Positions 6,131-29,895 of a DNA stretch of 31,756 bases are shown piece by piece. The notes under the pieces are model-generated. The model saw nothing but the letters and a program-made list of their open reading frames with translations, was not told the origin of the DNA and did no database searches. The DNA lies in UHGV virus genome UHGV-0302986; one strand, written 5' to 3'. Source of the DNA: a virus. A program made the translations under genes and the position numbers. Position 1 is the first letter of the stretch. Each line of letters opens with the position of its first letter.

Positions 6131-9100
6131 TCAGCTGATACTGATACCTGCTGTGGATTTCTTCATCACCACAACCAGCAGATCGCTGATACTGGTTGTT
6201 GGTGTCCAGTTATTCGCTCCTGATGAAGATACGGTGAATGTCAGTGTCAGCGTCCCCTGTCCGGCAGGCATATCTATAACTGAGGAAAATACGCCCTGAG
6301 CATCCGTCGTGGACTGATTAAAAATCTCCTGACCATTGCGGGTCACTCTTAACCGGCAGGTTGAATACCAGTATGACTGTTGGTTATTACTGTTGAAATT
6401 CTCATGCTTACCACCGCGGAATAACACTGGCGGTATCATGACCTGCCGGTCAAATTTCTGATCATCACTGATTCTTACCGTGATGGTGCCACTGGCATAA
6501 CTGTTCGTGCGGGGGAAAGACTTGCTGACCGTTTTGACAATATCGCCTTCAATCTGATTGGCTGACAGTTTCCCCTTAATCTGACAGTTTTCATTAATCG
6601 TGACATTGTTGAGCGTCCCTGAATTTGCATTCACATTACCGCTGATATCCGCATTTTTAGCGGTCAGCTTTCCGTCTGGTGTCAGGGAAAATGCCGGCGG
6701 ATTTCCACCGCTGGTAATGGTGGGAGCCGTCAGGCGTTTCAGGAACACGTCGTTCATGAATATCTGATCGCCCTGACCAACAAACATCGGTTTTGTGTTG
6801 CCATTCGCAGGATTAACCATCGCAATCCTGTCCGCCGCCAGCAGCACCTGACTCTGCATGCCGTCAGGGGTATTCTCAATACCGGCACCAATACCCGCGA
6901 TATAAAGGCGTCCGTCCTGCATCTGCTGCAGCTTCACAGCCCACATGCTGTTCAGGTTATTATTTGTATCAACCTGAACCTTCTGTATCTGCTGAATTGC
7001 AGCACTCTGGTCTTCCAGTTTCTTATTGACGGTCTGCGTGATTTCATTGCTGACATCCGTAATGGACGTCCTGATTTCAGCCAGGTCAGGCGCAAGCTGA
7101 CCGTTATCAATCTGCGTCCACAGCTCCTGAGCCAGATGGGTTTTCCCTATCTCGCCTTTGAAAAAATCCAGATAACCGGATGCATCATCACTCGGCTGAC
7201 CAACAGCCTCCACGAATGCCGATTTGCCAACGGTGTTCACACTGCGGATATAAAAGTAATAATCATGGCCCGGTTTGATATTGATACTGGCGGCTATCCA
7301 GTACAGCGCCGTGCCAAGATAGCGTGCTGTGGTTTCAACCTGCCTGATATCCGCAATCCGCTTTTCCGAGAACCAGAACTCAAACTGTACCGTCGGATCA
7401 TAAACCGCAAGATGCGGCGTGGCGGTTATCTGAAAATAGCCCGGCGTCAGCTCAATCCGCGACGGCGCTGCCGGTGCGGCAATCCGGAACGATACCGACG
7501 CCGGATCGCCCTGCTGCCCCCACGCATTTACTGCCCGGACTGTCAGCCTGTAGTTCCCCAGCGCCAGTTGTGTGAAGCGGTAAGTGGTTTCCGTCGTCCG
7601 GGCCGTGCTGACCAGCCGCTCACTGCCGTCATCCGCTGTTACGGTCAGACGGAGCAGGAAGCTCACGCCCTTCACCACCTTCGGTGTGTCCCATCGCGCC
7701 AGCACCTGATATTCCCCGCTGTCTGCAGTGACTTCGGCGGTCAGGTGCTGCACTGCTGGCGGCGTGACACCATTCACCGTGCCGCTCTGGTCACCGTCAA
7801 AGTGCGCCCCGTTATCCACGATGGCTTCTTTTTCCGGTACATGCTGCACGGCGGTGATGGCATACGTGCCGTCGTCGTTCTCACGGATACTCACGCAGCG
7901 GAACAGGCGCTGGCGCAGCGTCGGCAGCTTCAGCCCCCACACGCTGTATTCAGCAACGCCGTCAGGAACACGGCTCACTTTCACCTTCACGCCGTCGGTG
8001 ACGGACTGAACCTCCACGCTGACCGGATTGCCACTTCCGTCAACCAGGCTTATCAGCGTGGTGCCGGAAGATGGCAGCGTGATTTCACGGTCGAGCGTCA
8101 GCGTCCGGGTCTGGCTGTTTACCGCCAGCACGCGCCCGCCGGTGCGGATACCGGCATAGTCATCATCGCAGATTTCAATGACATCGCCCGGTACATGGCG
8201 AAGCCCTTCGGCACCCACGCTGAAGTCCACGGTCTGCGTTTCCAGCAGTTCTGTTTTAATCAGCCACAGCCCGGCGCGGTGTGCCTGCCCCCGGCTGGTA
8301 CAGCCAAAAGCATCCATCTTCGTGACGTTACGACCGTAACGGGCAATGGCCTGCGTGTCCTCCACAAGCTCTGTCGCCGTCTCCCAGCCGTTATTCGGGT
8401 CAATCCAGTTCACCTCAACGGCATTATGGCGGTCCTTCAGGGCGCTGAAGCTGTAGCGGAACGGCGCACCATCATCCGGCATCACCACATTACTGCGGTT
8501 ATAGGTCCACACCTTATCCGACGGTCGGTCCTGCACGAACGTCAGCGTCTGCCCGTTCCATACCGGCATACAGCGCATCGCAGAGCAGAAATCACTGAGC
8601 ACATCCCACGCCTTGCGCTGTGTGGTCAGGTACGCATTACAGGTGATGCGCGGCTCCGTGCCGCCAAAACCGTCCGGCACCGACTGATCGCAATGCTGGC
8701 CGATGACATACAGCGCCCATTTGTCCACATCCGCCGCACCAAGACGTTTCCCCATGCCGTAGCGCGGATGGGTCAGCATATCCCACAGACACCAGGCCAT
8801 GTTGTTGCTGTATGCTGGCTTAAACGTTCCGTCCCAGATACCGCTGTATTGCCGCGTCTGCGGGTTATAGTTCGACGGCACCTGCAGAATGCGCCCGCGA
8901 AGATGATAATTACGGCTCACCTGCTGGCTGCCGAACTGCTCCGAATCCACCTGCACGCCGACCAGTGCCGTGTTCGGGTAGCACTGTTTCACATCGATGA
9001 TTTCGGTGTATGACGACCAGAGCGTTTTGTTCTGCAGCTGGTCTGTGGTGCTGTCCGGCGTCATTCTGCGCATCCGGATATTAAACGGGCGCGGCGGCAG

Positions 9101-25283: not shown

Positions 25284-25517
25284 ATGTCAACGAAGAACAG
25301 AACCCGCAGAACAACAACCCGCAACATCCGCTTTCCTAACCAAATGATTGAACAAATTAACATCGCTCTTGATCAAAAAGGGTCCGGGAATTTCTCAGCC
25401 TGGGTCATTGAAGCCTGCCGCCGGAGACTGTGCTCAGAAAAAAGAGTTTCTCCTGAAGCAAACAAAGAAAAGAGTGACATTACTGAATTGCTCAGAAAAC
25501 AGATCAGACCAGATTGA
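25284..25517 (+). CDS. Small basic cos-proximal protein, possibly DUF3950 (YlcI-like), possible ribbon-helix-helix
   Basis: 77 aa; MSTKNRTRRTTTRNIRFPNQMIEQINIALDQKGSGNFSAWVIEACRRRL...; an equivalent ORF sits next to cos in lambda and DLP12 (from memory); transcribed opposite to the late operon. Confidence 0.6.
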   Translation: MSTKNRTRRTTTRNIRFPNQMIEQINIALDQKGSGNFSAWVIEACRRRLCSEKRVSPEANKEKSDITELLRKQIRPD

Positions 25518-25558
25518 AGCAATTTAGATAATCGTGCAGACTACACCCCTCATATCAC

Positions 25559-25984
25559 ATGGAAGGTACTACAATGGCTCAGGTTGCCATTTTTAAACAA
25601 ATATTCGATAAAGTGCGAAATAATTTAAACTATCACTGGTTTTATTCTGAACTAAAACGTCACAATGTCTCACATTACATTTACTATTTAGCCACAGAGA
25701 ATATTCATCTTGTTCTTGAAAACGATAATACGGTTTTAATAAAAGGACAGGGTAAGGTTGTAAATGTAAGATTTTCAAAAAATAAATGCCTTATAGAAGC
25801 CACCTTAAAAGGATTCAAATCAGGAGAGTTATCATTTTACGAATACAGGAAAAATCTTGCTACAGCAGGGGTTTTCAGATGGATTACAAATATCCACGAA
25901 AACAAAAGGTATTACTATACCTTTGATAATTCATTACTCTTTACTGAGAACATTCAGAACACTACACAAATATTTCCGCACTAA
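25559..25984 (+). CDS. DUF1398-like protein (YbcV/YdfO family) of unknown function
   Basis: 141 aa; ...[58 protein letters not shown]...[38 protein letters not shown]. The true start may be the internal Met at 25574. Confidence 0.6.
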
Positions 25985-26475
25985 ATCATAACGTCCGGTT
26001 TCTTCCGTGCCAGAACCGGACTCGCTGGCATGATGAAATATGTGTACCCGGTAACCCCGGTGTGCATCGTTTTTGATTATTCCCACACACTCGCGCAGAA
26101 GGAGTTCCCCGTCGGGCTACGGTCTCTGTTAATACGGGAATACGGCGACGATACAGCGCATGATGTGTCAGGCTTGAATACCTTTATCCTTTAAAAGGGA
26201 TATCAGTTAAGTTATCCCGTGTAGGGTATAAGCCATTATCAAAGCCACTCTGTAGGAAGTGGCTTTTGTAATGGCAATAAAAAGCCCCGCGAATGCGAGG
26301 CTAAATCCTGGTATTTGTAATGACTGGCTCTTATCTCAACGCAGCCCCTTACCGCGCGCAAAATGCTCAATATCAAGCATCAGCAATGAGATGTTTAATC
26401 TGGATTCACTCCAGAAGTGAGCACCACCCTGTCTACAGAGCCAGATGTGAAGGATGATGAGTAAAATTATCGCTA

Positions 26476-26943
26476 TCATCGAAGGCATTGCGTCCTGATG
26501 TATTCCTGAAGCGTTCTCAGTGCTGTTTGGTCGCGGATAATTCCGTCCCGGATACCGAGAACGTTTCGTCCAGCAACTGGAGAGAGTTCGACGGTGGCAT
26601 CATTGCCCATGCCGGAGGCGCTGGAGGTTTCGGCTGAGGATGGCACAGGGCATTTTCCTTTGACGAGCACCCGACCACCATTATCAAGCTTGCGCCGAAG
26701 AGCATCATTTTCAGCTTTCGCATCAGCTAACTCCTTCGTGTATTTATCATCGAGTGCATCAGCATCACGCTGGCGCTGCTGCATGTCAGTAATGGTGGCG
26801 TTCGCCTTCTCCAGTTCACTGGCCTTGTTATCGCGCTGTTCTTTGTAGGCGATTGCATTATCACGGTAATGATTAACAGCCCATGACAGGCAGACGATGA
26901 TGCAGATAACCAGAGCGGAGATAATCGCGGTTACTCTGTTCAT
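26476..26943 (-). CDS. Rz: Spanin inner-membrane subunit Rz
   Basis: [38 protein letters not shown]... with N-terminal TMD and coiled coil; start taken at the internal Met of the track ORF, abutting the endolysin stop. Confidence 0.85.
26517..26723 (-). CDS. Rz1: Spanin outer-membrane lipoprotein Rz1, embedded in the +1 frame of Rz
   Basis: Track ORF with lipobox-like VVGCSS followed by a proline-rich segment [16 protein letters not shown]; the exact start is uncertain. Confidence 0.7.
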
Positions 26944-27437
26944 TGCTGACCCCACAAACAGATTTCACGCTCAATCTCACGACGAGTCATGAGACCTTTC
27001 CATTGCTTACCGCCAGCATATGTCCAGCGACGTAGCTGATCACATGCGCCTTTGATATCGCCCTGGTTTATTTTGCGAAGAAGCGTCGATGTTCTGAAAT
27101 TGCCAGCGCCCACGTTGTAAACGAACAAGTAAAGAGCGCCGCGCGTTGTTTCCGGTATATCAACTTTTATGTACGGGTTAATTTGTCTGGCGACCGTGGC
27201 AAGGTCTTTATTCAGGAGGGCTTTGCATTCTGCTTTGGTATACGTTTTACCGAGCATGATGTCTTTTCCTGTATGCCCGTGACATACAGTCCATACACCA
27301 ACAATATCTTTGTATGGTATGTAGCTGACACCTTCCAGACCATCGTTACCACTTGGGCCAGTGATTAACACTGATGCTATAGCAATTGCTCCGCCACCAA
27401 TAGCAGCAGCAACGGCTTTTCGTAATGATGGAGGCAT
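26940..27437 (-). CDS. R: SAR endolysin (phage-21 R-type lysozyme)
   Basis: 165 aa; [44 protein letters not shown]... The Gly/Ala-rich N-terminal signal-anchor-release domain and the catalytic region resemble R21. Confidence 0.85.
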
Positions 27438-27652
27438 TATTCACCTCTCGCAGCCTTGCGCTTATCTTCTTTAATCTTGAAATAAAGGTTTGTCAGGTAC
27501 GTCAGCAGGCCAAATACCAGGCTACCCAGCACACCTATTGCTGCCCACTGTGAGGGCGTGACTTTATCGAGCAGCTGTAAAAACCAGTAACCGGCACTAC
27601 CTGCTGAGGTGCCATAGGCGACACCCGTTGTTAACTTATCCATGGATTTCAT
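27437..27652 (-). CDS. S: Pinholin (phage-21 S-type class II holin)
   Basis: [71 protein letters not shown]; 71 aa with two TMDs and the dual-start motif MKSM. The track ORF extends upstream to 27697. Confidence 0.85.
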
Positions 27653-28240
27653 AACCCCACCTCGCAGACAAAGCGGGTGTAAATTGAGGGAATACAACGT
27701 ATCGCAAAAAAGCAGAAACGTAACAGACTCGGAGTCAGTGAATAACTCAGGTATTGAGTTATCAGCTAATATCGAGACTCAAAAAATGGAAAAACCAGCT
27801 CGACGGCGGGTTTAAGCTGTGTGACGAAGTAACCACTCTTAACAGCATAACCAATTTTTTACGTACGTAAACCGCTGAATGATATTTATGAGAATGCTAC
27901 CGAGTGTTCAAAACTCCACCACAAATACATAAGAAAACCTCAACAAATAACCAATAAATAATTTCAGACGTTATTTTTAGTTGATTTAAATTAAACTGCC
28001 GAATTATAGAACCCCCATAAATAACAGCCATTAATATAAATTAGCTAATAGGTTTATTTTTGTTCAAATAAGAGCCATAAATAGGTTTCGATAGAAAAAG
28101 TTCAGATAAAAATAGAGATCTACTTCACAAATTAAATGAGAAACTAAAACTTACATCTTGAAATAATCACATTGATTAGATGAATATTTATCGCGCAGTG
28201 ACATCATTTTTTAATAATAGTTCAAAAAAAAGGGCTCACG

Positions 28241-29323
28241 ATGAAAAAATTAACAGTGGCAATTTCTGCTGTAGCTGCATCAGTACTGATGGCGATGTCT
28301 GCTCAGGCAGCTGAAATTTATAATAAAGACAGTAACAAGCTGGATCTGTACGGGAAAGTTAATGCTAAGCACTACTTCTCCTCTAATGATGCAGATGATG
28401 GTGATACTACTTATGCCCGTCTTGGCTTCAAAGGTGAAACCCAAATCAACGATCAACTGACTGGTTTCGGTCAGTGGGAATATGAATTCAAAGGCAACCG
28501 CGCTGAATCTCAAGGTTCCTCCAAAGACAAAACCCGTCTTGCATTTGCAGGCCTGAAATTCGGTGACTACGGCTCAATCGATTACGGCCGTAACTACGGT
28601 GTAGCATACGACATCGGTGCGTGGACTGACGTTCTGCCAGAATTCGGTGGCGATACCTGGACCCAAACAGATGTATTCATGACTGGTCGCACCACAGGTG
28701 TTGCAACTTATCGTAACAACGACTTCTTTGGTCTGGTTGATGGCCTGAACTTTGCAGCTCAGTATCAGGGCAAAAATGACCGAAATGAAGTAACTGAAGC
28801 TAATGGCGATGGTTTCGGTTTCTCAACTACTTATGAGTATGAAGGATTCGGCGTGGGTGCAACCTATGCTAAATCTGATCGCACTAATAATCAGGTTATC
28901 TACGGTAACAACGGTCTGAATGCTTCTGGTCAAAATGCTGAAGTATGGGCAGCTGGTCTGAAATATGATGCGAACAACATCTATCTGGCCACCACCTATT
29001 CTGAAACCCAGAACATGACTGTTTTTGGTAATAACCATATTGCCAACAAAGCACAAAACTTCGAAGCTGTTGCACAATATCAGTTCGACTTCGGCCTGCG
29101 TCCATCCGTTGCTTACCTGCATTCTAAAGGAAAAGACTTGGGTGTTTGGGGTGATCAGGACCTGGTTGAATATGTTGATGTAGGTGCAACCTATTACTTC
29201 AACAAAAATATGTCCACTTTTGTTGACTACAAAATCAACCTGATTGATAAGAGCGATTTCACGAAAGCATCTGGCGTTGCTACCGATGATATCGTTGCTG
29301 TAGGTATGGTTTACCAGTTCTAA
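28241..29323 (+). CDS. nmpC: Outer membrane general porin (OmpC/NmpC/Lc family), prophage moron
   Basis: 360 aa; signal peptide [59 protein letters not shown]-terminal ...VGMVYQF. It lies opposite to and between Q and the lysis genes, preceded by a ~540-bp AT-rich region. Confidence 0.9.
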
Positions 29324-29338
29324 TTTGATTACTAAAAG

Positions 29339-29372
29339 ATATGTTGTGGGAGGCTTTGCCTCCCCAACATAT
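29339..29372 (-). terminator. Large hairpin; candidate late-operon terminator tR' (Q-antiterminated) on the minus strand
   Basis: ATATGTTGTGGGAGGC-TTTG-CCTCCCCAACATAT stem-loop; on the minus strand it is followed by CTTTTAG; it lies downstream of Q and before the antisense nmpC. Confidence 0.35.
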
Positions 29373-29459
29373 AAGTGGCTCCCTCAAGCCACTTCCTTTA
29401 GAAGCACAACCTTGCTTCTAACTATACAAACCTTCTGTTATATATTACCCTTTATTTTT

Positions 29460-29487
29460 GGGGGCGTTTCAACGCCCCATTTTTAAT
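29460..29487 (+). terminator. Rho-independent terminator, plus strand, downstream of nmpC
   Basis: GGGGGCGTT-TCAA-CGCCCC hairpin followed by ATTTTTAAT. Confidence 0.55.
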
Positions 29488-29511
29488 AACTTTTAGTAAA
29501 TAATTGGCGTA

Positions 29512-29895
29512 TTAATTAGAGTTATTAACAACGATATCCATCTCTAACCGGATATCTAATGCCATTAACATCCCTTCAATTATGCCCTCAGCCTTCTGTA
29601 ACCTTTTCCCGATATAACCATCAGAGCAGCAATGCTTACCTGCCAGTGACATGAATGTCATACCGACTACATAATAATCTACTAATAAATCGTGCAAATC
29701 GCTGTTGTTCTTTTTCAGACGGGCCATGCACCCGCAAATGATCATCGCGTCATCGTCACAACATTGCGGGCGAGATTTTACTTTTGAAGTAATTAATCCC
29801 TTAAAACCGGCGGCAATGGACGACCAGGTCACATCTTCATGATTATTAGCCGCCCACGCTCCCCAACGCTCAAGAACCATCTGAATATCACGCAT
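29512..29895 (-). CDS. quuD: Late gene antiterminator Q (DLP12 QuuD / phage-82 type)
   Basis: [62 protein letters not shown]... (127 aa from the internal Met of the track ORF). Confidence 0.85.

What the first reader, a model, noticed from the sequence alone, without database searches (positions are those of the whole stretch)
27698..29490. Intact phage-borne porin gene inserted between Q and the lysis cassette
A complete OmpC/NmpC/Lc-type porin with signal peptide is encoded on the plus strand, antiparallel to the late operon, with ~540 bp of AT-rich upstream sequence and its own terminator. The late transcript from the Q-dependent promoter must read antisense through the whole porin gene to reach S-R-Rz. 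In E. coli K-12 the equivalent nmpC is disrupted by an insertion element (from memory), so an intact copy is a candidate lysogenic-conversion function altering outer-membrane permeability or phage receptor display.
Basis: partly seen in the sequence, partly recalled or inferred. Interest (0 to 1): 0.45.

Follow-up and report, generated by a model that had tools for sequence, protein, structure and literature searches.

The report
Known lambdoid-phage porin gene (NmpC/Lc)
This is an intact copy of the long-known NmpC/Lc porin gene that many lambda-like E. coli phages carry between their late-gene activator Q and their lysis genes; it is real and probably functional, but ordinary and already described.

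Summary
Window 28241-29323 (+) encodes a complete 360-aa OmpC/OmpF-family porin. It has a 23-aa signal peptide, the PEFGG loop-3 motif and a C-terminal Phe. It lies antiparallel between antiterminator Q (29512-29895, -) and a P21-type holin-lysozyme-Rz cassette.

It is the classical qsr'-type porin module. Gene order and both flanks are about 95% identical to quuD-nmpC-essD of the K-12 prophage DLP12, where IS5 does cut nmpC 58 nt before its end. The protein is about 90% identical to K-12 NmpC and to Lc of phage PA-2. Both CRP sites annotated in the PA-2 record are conserved base for base. The 3'UTR is 96% identical to the DLP12 ipeX region.

The module is common. At least 80% of it is present in 2466 of 5426 complete E. 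coli genomes, and 42 phage records carry the porin, including viable phages and P1-like P7. Alleles evolve under purifying selection (dN/dS 0.05-0.12), with changes in blocks at the expected surface-loop positions. Published data show lysogens expressing such porins.

The antisense read-through by the late transcript is a sound inference from gene order, not a demonstration.

Verdict: already known, low interest. The one less-described detail is that the ipeX 3'UTR and the putative late leader and terminator occupy opposite strands of the same ~150 bp.

The parts
28241..29323 (+). Porin coding sequence (360 aa), NmpC/Lc type. The signal peptide is 28241-28309 and the mature protein starts at 28310 (AEIYNKD...).
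   Evidence: ORF. Porin_1 full-length match, E=3.6e-152. 330/365 identical to K-12 NmpC with IS5 removed. 90.4% identical to PA-2 Lc. Signal peptide identical to the one annotated in J02580.
28112..28132 (+). Promoter-proximal CRP site, as annotated in the PA-2 lc record. The core is AGAGATCTACTTCACA at 28114-28129.
   Evidence: 100% identical to J02580 misc_binding 1363-1383 and to DLP12. It aligns with a perfect TGTGATTTTGATCACA in P7 and JL22.
28158..28186 (+). Putative porin promoter: TTGAAA (28158-28163), 17-nt spacer, TGAATA (28181-28186). Inferred only.
   Evidence: TTGAAA and the following AGAT.AA.ATTT and CGCAGTGAC blocks are conserved between lambdoid and P1-like phage copies that are about 75% identical overall. 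The start site is not mapped. The consensus scan did not call it.
27817..27837 (+). Distal CRP site, as annotated in the PA-2 record, inside the AT-rich spacer.
   Evidence: 100% identical to J02580 misc_binding 1067-1087 and to DLP12.
27653..28240 (.). 588-bp AT-rich gap between the holin start and the porin start. It holds the porin control region. On the minus strand it is the last stretch the late transcript would cross before the holin.
   Evidence: GC is 28-34% at 27750-28200. About 95% identical to the DLP12 essD-nmpC gap.
29324..29487 (+). Structured porin 3'UTR, the ipeX homologue. Hairpins at 29339-29372, 29373-29394 and 29398-29421; intrinsic terminator at 29461-29478 plus a T run at 29480-29484.
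   Evidence: 96% identical to DLP12 and PA-2. MFE -58.5 kcal/mol, z=-9.0. Terminator found. The same four-hairpin layout with compensating stem changes follows the P7/JL22 porin. ipeX is described as a 167-nt RNA of DLP12 made as part of the porin transcript (PMC12197685).
29333..29372 (-). Candidate late-leader terminator (tR'): hairpin 29372->29339 followed by CTTTTA (29338->29333), ending 10 nt from the porin stop codon. Inferred.
   Evidence: Minus-strand fold, z=-7.1. K-12 and PA-2 have CTTTTT at this position. P7, which has no Q or pR', lacks the T run.
29421..29472 (-). Candidate late promoter pR': TTGAAA (29472-29467), 19-nt spacer, TAATAT (29447-29442). It is followed by a -10-like TATAGT (29426-29421) that could be the sigma-dependent pause element. 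Weakly supported.
   Evidence: Best match in a relaxed scan of the minus strand. Its position just downstream of Q fits the general Q cassette (bioRxiv 10.1101/651190). Not mapped, and the 19-nt spacer is atypical.
29512..29895 (-). Antiterminator Q, QuuD type (127 aa from the ATG).
   Evidence: PF06530, E=4e-53. Annotated as quuD in an identical E. coli prophage. Distant match to Q21 structures (E=7.6e-07).
27437..27652 (-). Holin, S21/EssD type (71 aa from the ATG at 27652).
   Evidence: PF04971, E=3.5e-35. Annotated as essD, 216 nt, in an identical prophage.
26476..27437 (-). Lysozyme (26940-27437) and Rz (26476-26955).
   Evidence: PF00959, E=3.6e-44, and PF03245, E=4.1e-29.

Best explanation
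This is the NmpC/Lc porin cassette of qsr'-type lambdoid phages. It is a self-contained 'moron' lodged in the cargo slot between Q/pR' and the holin.

In the lysogen the cassette is transcribed from its own CRP-assisted promoter, against the direction of the silent late operon. The product is exported by the Sec pathway, its 23-aa signal peptide is removed, and it assembles as a general-diffusion porin in the outer membrane.

The mRNA carries a structured 3'UTR (ipeX) and ends at its own intrinsic terminator. ipeX lowers synthesis of the host porins OmpC and OmpF after transcription. The lysogen therefore swaps part of its porin set for the phage's allele, which changes permeability and the surface offered to phages, colicins and antibodies.

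On induction, Q-modified RNA polymerase starting just downstream of Q ignores the leader terminator. It runs antisense across the whole cassette to reach holin-lysozyme-Rz.

Shown here: the identity, intactness, context, conservation and selection of the gene, and the conserved control sites and 3'UTR structure. Taken from the literature: expression in lysogens and the action of ipeX. Inferred: the exact promoters, CRP dependence in this copy, and the antisense read-through.
For: Gene and family: full-length Porin_1 match and end-to-end matches to solved porins.

Context: colinear with DLP12 quuD-nmpC-essD and about 95% identical in both flanks. Colinear with the PA-2 lc record. Both PA-2 CRP sites are conserved 100%. 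The proximal CRP site, TTGAAA and the 5'UTR blocks are also kept in P1-like phages.

Terminator and 3'UTR: terminator. The 3'UTR is 96% identical to the ipeX region. It is strongly structured (z=-9). Its four hairpins persist with compensating changes in P7/JL22.

Selection: dN/dS is 0.05-0.12 across 8 alleles, and all are open apart from the IS5 in K-12.

Spread: 2466 of 5426 complete E. coli genomes and 42 phage records, including propagated phages.

Cargo slot: phage 1H12 has a Q that is 88% identical but carries different cargo in the same interval. The slot downstream of pR' is known to take morons (PMC4104026).

Literature: NmpC is expressed from prophage Perceval (PMC9928086) and in CFT073 at RNA and protein level (PMC12890032). 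ipeX is made as part of the porin transcript and controls OmpC (PMC12197685; PMC5069750; PMC3333887).
Against: Nothing here measures expression of this particular copy.

The promoter hexamers are weak (TTGAAA-17-TGAATA) and were not called by the consensus scan.

nmpC has been called 'quiescent' in E. coli B (title of Prilipov et al. 1998, cited). The 28-34% GC upstream region could be silenced by H-NS.

The primary Lc, nmpC and ipeX papers could not be read, so the catabolite-repression and OmpC-receptor points rest on the GenBank annotation and on memory.

Porin alleles are not linked to one J receptor-binding type: ev243 has the same porin but a J C-terminus only 62% identical. Lowering the phage's own receptor therefore cannot be the general purpose.
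Confidence: 0.88

Rival explanations
1. The gene is intact but silent. It would be a 'quiescent' porin kept off in this host, for example by H-NS on the AT-rich upstream region, with no conversion phenotype under ordinary conditions.
For: The upstream region is 28-34% GC. nmpC has been described as a quiescent porin gene in E. coli B (reference title). The promoter hexamers are weak.
Against: dN/dS of 0.05-0.12 at dS up to 0.5-1.5 shows the protein is under selection. The control sites and 3'UTR structure are conserved across lambdoid and P1-like phages. Expression has been measured in LF82 and CFT073. Conditional expression (temperature, cAMP) would reconcile the two views.
Confidence: 0.15
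2. The important product is RNA rather than porin. The cassette would persist mainly to deliver ipeX, or to provide the late-leader/terminator structure on the other strand, with the porin as a passenger.
For: The 3'UTR is highly structured, and its hairpins are conserved with compensating changes in a different phage type. It overlaps the putative late leader and tR' on the minus strand.
Against: The coding sequence itself is under strong purifying selection and is open in all alleles examined. In K-12 the IS5 insertion kills the porin but is a laboratory-lineage state. Both functions coexist in the published model.
Confidence: 0.07
3. A protein is encoded antisense to the porin on the late transcript, such as the 'ORF1' annotated in the 1986 PA-2 record.
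For: Long stop-free antisense stretches exist, up to 166 codons in the window. J02580 annotates an antisense ORF1.
Against: The positions of antisense stops differ among all six alleles compared, and no stretch is conserved apart from one of 62 codons lying in the near-identical 5' part. None has a family match.
Confidence: 0.02

Closest known systems
lc (Lc porin, 'protein 2') of lambdoid phage PA-2, GenBank J02580
   Same: Same gene order (Rz, lysozyme and holin on one strand, porin on the other). The signal peptide is identical. Both annotated CRP sites are identical and the 3'UTR is 96% identical. The first ~400 nt of the gene are 99-100% identical.
   Different: The protein is 90.4% identical overall. 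From about 28650 onward nucleotide identity falls to 65-88%. There are 5 fewer residues, and replacements fall in blocks at the expected loop L4-L8 positions. The window copy is a different, mosaic allele.
nmpC of cryptic prophage DLP12 (qsr') in E. coli K-12, with ipeX
   Same: Same quuD-nmpC-essD-rrrD-rzpD layout and orientation. Both intergenic regions are about 95-96% identical, including the ipeX region.
   Different: The K-12 copy is interrupted by IS5B 58 nt before the stop, whereas the window copy is intact. 330 of 365 residues are identical. K-12 has a 16-bp deletion near the holin end of the spacer.
nmpC of P1-like phages P7 and JL22
   Same: Same cassette from the CRP site through the four-hairpin 3'UTR and terminator. 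The protein is about 82% identical.
   Different: It lies between odaA/hxr and ssb, not in a Q-S slot. No T run follows hairpin 1 on the opposite strand. L4 is longer.
Chromosomal general porins OmpC, OmpF, PhoE and OmpK37 (solved structures) and Salmonella OmpD
   Same: Same family and length, with the PEFGG loop-3 motif and a C-terminal Phe. E is about 1e-120 to 1e-135.
   Different: It is not the chromosomal ompC orthologue, although RefSeq names it 'porin OmpC'. It reaches only the OmpC subfamily cut-off and fails the PhoE and OmpF equivalog cut-offs. It is phage-borne.
Other cargo in the Q-S 'moron' slot (stx in Stx phages; Blc/YbgA in phage 1H12)
   Same: Same slot downstream of Q/pR'. 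In 1H12 a lipocalin gene is also antiparallel to the late operon.
   Different: The genes are different. The replaced segment in the window is 27664-29535.

Membership tests
General bacterial porin family (Pfam PF00267 Porin_1; OmpC/OmpF/PhoE) | Full-length match to the family profile | tested here: met
   Residues 29-360 match profile positions 1-337 of 337, E=3.6e-152, 507 bits against a cut-off of 23.7.
General bacterial porin family (Pfam PF00267 Porin_1; OmpC/OmpF/PhoE) | Cleavable N-terminal signal peptide and a mature N-terminus of the AE(I/V)YNKD type | tested here: met
   [23 protein letters not shown]|AEIYNKD. It is identical to the sig_peptide annotated in J02580. Solved mature porins align from residue 24.
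General bacterial porin family (Pfam PF00267 Porin_1; OmpC/OmpF/PhoE) | Constriction-loop PEFGG motif and a C-terminal aromatic residue needed for assembly | tested here: met
   PEFGG is at residues 133-137 and the C-terminus is VYQF. That these are hallmarks rests on established knowledge of OmpF/OmpC.
General bacterial porin family (Pfam PF00267 Porin_1; OmpC/OmpF/PhoE) | 16-stranded beta-barrel trimer that forms a diffusion channel | not tested
It is inferred from end-to-end homology to solved porins.
NmpC/Lc phage porin cassette (qsr' type) | Close sequence relationship to Lc and NmpC | tested here: met
   90.4% identical to PA-2 Lc. 330/365 identical to K-12 NmpC. The 5' 400 nt are 97-100% identical.
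NmpC/Lc phage porin cassette (qsr' type) | Location between Q and the P21-type lysis genes, transcribed against them | tested here: met
NmpC/Lc phage porin cassette (qsr' type) | Conserved upstream control region with CRP sites | tested here: met
   Both sites annotated in J02580 are identical in the window. CRP binding itself was not tested.
NmpC/Lc phage porin cassette (qsr' type) | ipeX 3'UTR between the stop codon and the terminator | tested here: met
   96% identical to DLP12 and structured. Rfam has no matching family. Regulatory activity was not tested.
NmpC/Lc phage porin cassette (qsr' type) | Expression in the lysogen with a fall in OmpC/OmpF | not testable with these tools
   Literature only.
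Moron (autonomous cargo unit in a phage genome) | Own promoter and own terminator, composition unlike the neighbours, and present or absent between genes that are adjacent or differently filled in relatives | tested here: met
   Terminator. The promoter is inferred from the conservation footprint. GC dips to 28-34%. Phage 1H12 has other cargo between homologous Q and holin genes.
Chromosomal OmpC orthologue (NCBIfam naming) | Score above the family cut-off and chromosomal ompC context | tested here: not met
   It passes only the 'subfamily' model NF007841 (515 against 484). It fails the PhoE and OmpF equivalogs. The context is a prophage late region, not the ompC locus.

The most novel reading that the evidence does not exclude
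The porin 3'UTR (ipeX) and the phage's late leader RNA with its terminator tR' would be the two strands of the same ~150-bp structured stretch (29333-29472).

If pR' fires constitutively in the lysogen, as in lambda, its short terminated RNA would be perfectly complementary to ipeX and the porin mRNA 3' end. The two convergent units could then regulate each other. That would tie outer-membrane remodelling to the state of the late switch.

Hairpin 1 would then serve both as an ipeX element and as tR'.
Probability: 0.15. Interest if true: 0.4.

Novelty: already known. Interest (0 to 1): 0.1.

Why it matters
It matters little as a discovery. Phage-borne NmpC/Lc porins, their place in the qsr' late region, the IS5 in K-12 and the ipeX RNA have been described since 1985-2006, and the module sits in nearly half of complete E. 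coli genomes.

It has three practical uses:
- Annotation: RefSeq labels these genes 'porin OmpC', which hides that they are prophage cargo.
- Phenotype prediction: an intact copy can change porin-dependent antibiotic entry, heat resistance, and sensitivity to phages and colicins.
- Allele diversity: variation concentrated at the expected surface-loop positions is consistent with pressure on exposed epitopes.

Tried and rejected
- Rfam scan of the whole window at gathering thresholds gave no hit, so ipeX could not be confirmed through a curated RNA family.
- The primary papers could not be opened: Castillo-Keller 2006, Highton 1985 and Prilipov 1998. ipeX and nmpC facts were taken from papers that cite them.
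- I tried to place the late promoter by homology to the Q21 system. The window's Q is only distantly related to Q21 (E=7.6e-07 over 80 residues), and the paper's text does not print the QBE sequence. The promoter therefore stays a weak consensus guess.
- The consensus promoter scan found nothing upstream of the porin. The promoter was instead inferred from conservation with P7.
- The MAFFT alignment of the 3'UTRs shifts hairpins 1 and 3 of P7 by a base or two, so many pairs are scored 'broken'. Folding P7 on its own shows the same four hairpins.
- A conserved antisense ORF is rejected.
- A link between the porin allele and J receptor type is rejected: ev243 has the same porin with a different J C-terminus.
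- The minus-strand fold of the spacer before the holin shows only a weak hairpin plus U run and a z-score of -2.3, so nothing is claimed there.
- A literature search for 'IpeX' alone returned only the human IPEX syndrome.
- I did not count how many genomic copies are intact. IS-split copies would be joined by the search tool and could not be told apart.

Full report
**1. What is in the sequence**

Window 28241-29323 on the plus strand is an uninterrupted 360-codon ORF.
- Its product matches the Pfam general porin profile over the whole profile length (positions 1-337 of 337, E=3.6e-152).
- It aligns end to end with solved OmpK37, OmpC, PhoE and OmpF chains, from residue 24 onward (E about 1e-120 to 1e-135).
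- The first 23 residues ([23 protein letters not shown]) are identical to the signal peptide annotated in the phage PA-2 lc record.
- The PEFGG motif and the terminal ...VYQF are present.

Every neighbouring gene lies on the minus strand:
- Q antiterminator, 29512-29895 (PF06530).
- P21-type holin, 27437-27652.
- Lysozyme, 26940-27437.
- Rz, 26476-26955.
- Further out, RusA, YbcO and NinB-like genes on one side and terminase and lambda-like head and tail genes on the other.

The stretch upstream of the porin falls to 28-34% GC. A clean intrinsic terminator (GGGGCGTTTCAACGCCCC plus a T run) lies at 29461-29484 on the plus strand.

The one correction concerns the spacer. Measured from the holin ATG used in homologues (27652), it is 588 bp.

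**2. What it is**

The segment is colinear with quuD-nmpC-essD-rrrD-rzpD of the K-12 cryptic prophage DLP12, and the porin has the same opposite orientation there.
- The Q-porin gap is 96% identical to DLP12 and the porin-holin gap 95%.
- With the IS removed, K-12 NmpC is 330/365 identical to the window protein.

The 1986 GenBank record of phage PA-2 (J02580: Rz, ORF2, lc) is also colinear. Its two annotated CRP-binding sites are conserved base for base, at window 27817-27837 and 28112-28132.

An identical copy, named 'porin OmpC' by RefSeq, sits in a lambda-like prophage beside ybhC in E. coli PSS-13.

The name is misleading. The protein passes only the OmpC subfamily model of NCBIfam and fails the PhoE and OmpF equivalogs, and its context is a prophage.

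**3. How common it is**

- At least 80% of 27698-29511 is found in one place in 2466 of 5426 complete E. coli genomes.
- Forty-two phage records encode the porin. They include phages propagated on K-12, E. coli C or ECOR13 and prophage Perceval of LF82.
- The P1-like phages P7 and JL22 carry it in a different genomic setting.

The antiparallel arrangement is therefore compatible with lytic growth.

**4. Is the gene functional?**

All eight alleles compared are open, apart from the IS5 in K-12. Pairwise dN/dS is 0.05-0.12 at dS of 0.07 to more than 1.5. That is strong purifying selection on the protein.

The window allele is a mosaic. Its first ~400 nt are 97-100% identical to PA-2 and K-12. 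From about 28650 onward identity drops to 65-88%, with dS about 1.0 in that part.

Amino-acid replacements and indels fall in blocks. These lie around residues 181-190, 219-232, 263-267, 293-309 and 335-344. They coincide with the indel positions against OmpK37. From memory of OmpF/OmpC topology, they also coincide with external loops L4-L8. I did not verify that assignment with a structure.

No antisense ORF is conserved among the alleles.

**5. Control regions**

*Upstream of the porin.* Comparison with the P7 and JL22 copies, about 75% identical overall, gives a footprint.
- The PA-2-annotated proximal CRP site aligns with a perfect TGTGATTTTGATCACA in P7.
- A conserved TTGAAA follows at 28158-28163.
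- Seventeen nt later there is a weak -10-like hexamer (TGAATA, 28181-28186).
- A conserved CGCAGTGAC lies at 28194-28202.

With a start near 28193, the CRP centre (28121.5) would be at about -71.5, a class I position. This is inference; no start site was mapped and the simple scan did not call the promoter.

*Downstream of the porin.* The 164 nt from the stop codon to the terminator fold into four hairpins (z=-9.0). They are 96% identical to the DLP12 region known as ipeX.

The P7/JL22 porins are followed by the same four-hairpin layout, with compensating changes in the stems. There is no Q or late promoter at that locus in those phages. The structure therefore belongs to the porin cassette.

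The cassette as a unit spans roughly 28106-29487.

**6. The late transcript**

The general Q cassette is the Q gene, then pR', a sigma-dependent pause element and a terminator, then the late genes (bioRxiv 10.1101/651190). The slot downstream of pR' is a known site for morons (PMC4104026).

In the window, only 188 bp separate the Q stop from the porin stop.

On the minus strand, the first ipeX hairpin (29372->29339) is followed by CTTTTA, or CTTTTT in K-12 and PA-2. It looks like the leader terminator tR', and its T run ends 10 nt from the porin stop codon.

The best promoter-like match upstream is TTGAAA-19-TAATAT (29472->29442), followed by a -10-like TATAGT. This assignment is weak because the 19-nt spacer is atypical. 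The window's Q is also too distant from Q21 to transfer the known binding site.

No intrinsic terminator was detected on the minus strand between 29330 and the holin.

Phage 1H12 has a Q that is 88% identical at the protein level and a holin/lysozyme region about 88% identical at the DNA level. It carries different cargo in the same interval: a lipocalin Blc gene that is also antiparallel, a YbgA-like gene and a hypothetical gene. Homology breaks at window 27663 and 29536.

It is not demonstrated here.

**7. Mechanism and rivals**

*Best explanation (confidence 0.88).* This is a classical lysogenic-conversion moron. In the lysogen the porin is made from its own CRP-assisted promoter, while ipeX in its 3'UTR lowers host OmpC and OmpF. 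On induction, Q-modified polymerase overrides tR' and reads through the cassette to the lysis genes.

Published work shows prophage NmpC expressed 10-fold above local background in LF82 (PMC9928086). It also shows nmpC genes induced at 37 C at RNA and protein level in CFT073, and cites a role in heat resistance (PMC12890032).

*Rivals.*
- A silent 'quiescent' gene (0.15). This is compatible with conditional expression.
- An RNA-only role (0.07).
- An antisense protein (0.02).

*The receptor idea.* From memory, Lc/ipeX serves to remove the phage's own OmpC receptor in PA-2. That cannot be general. Phage ev243 has an identical porin but a J C-terminus only 62% identical to the window's. The window's J C-terminus is 57% identical to lambda's.

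**8. Verdict**

The finding is real and correctly interpreted, but already known in every main respect. It has been in GenBank since 1986, is annotated in K-12, and is present in nearly half of complete E. coli genomes.

One detail I could not find stated in the papers available to me. The ipeX 3'UTR and the putative late leader and tR' are opposite strands of one ~150-bp structured stretch. That leaves room for antisense coupling between the two convergent units. I give it a probability of 0.15 of being functionally meaningful.

Interest: 0.1.

Noticed in passing
window 29333-29472, both strands: The porin 3'UTR (ipeX, plus strand) and the putative late leader with its terminator (minus strand) overlap completely. 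Hairpin 1 has a T run only on the minus-strand side in lambdoid copies and none in P7.
   Followed up: partly
L004 (phage 1H12) 444-3500, against window 27664-29535: A phage with a Q that is 88% identical carries a lipocalin Blc gene (also antiparallel), a YbgA-like gene and a hypothetical gene in place of the porin cassette. Its leader shows a clearer TTGCTG-17-TAATGT promoter, a TAGAAT pause-like element and a strong terminator.
   Followed up: partly
window 28650-29323: The porin allele is a mosaic. The 5' 400 nt are nearly identical to PA-2 and K-12. The 3' 60% is only 65-88% identical (dS about 1.0), which suggests recombination with a diverged porin allele.
   Followed up: partly
window 6131-6880 (-): The C-terminal 249 aa of the tail-tip protein J are only 57% identical to lambda J and about 90% identical to J of several Stx1/Stx2 phages. 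The receptor is therefore probably not LamB and remains unknown.
   Followed up: partly
window 25284-25984 (+) and 25985-26475: YlcI-like (DUF3950) and YbcV-like (DUF1398) genes lie antiparallel between terminase and Rz, as in DLP12. No bor gene lies between them and Rz; only a 50-aa hydrophobic ORF (26336-26488, -) is there.
   Followed up: no
window 27778-27812 (-): A weak hairpin followed by UUUUUCCAUUUUUU lies on the minus strand about 125 nt before the holin start. It might damp un-antiterminated antisense transcripts. The fold of the whole spacer is barely better than shuffles (z=-2.3).
   Followed up: no
L002 (E. coli PSS-13) and RefSeq hits: RefSeq names this prophage porin 'ompC: porin OmpC' in most genomes, which conflates it with the chromosomal ompC gene.
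   Followed up: no
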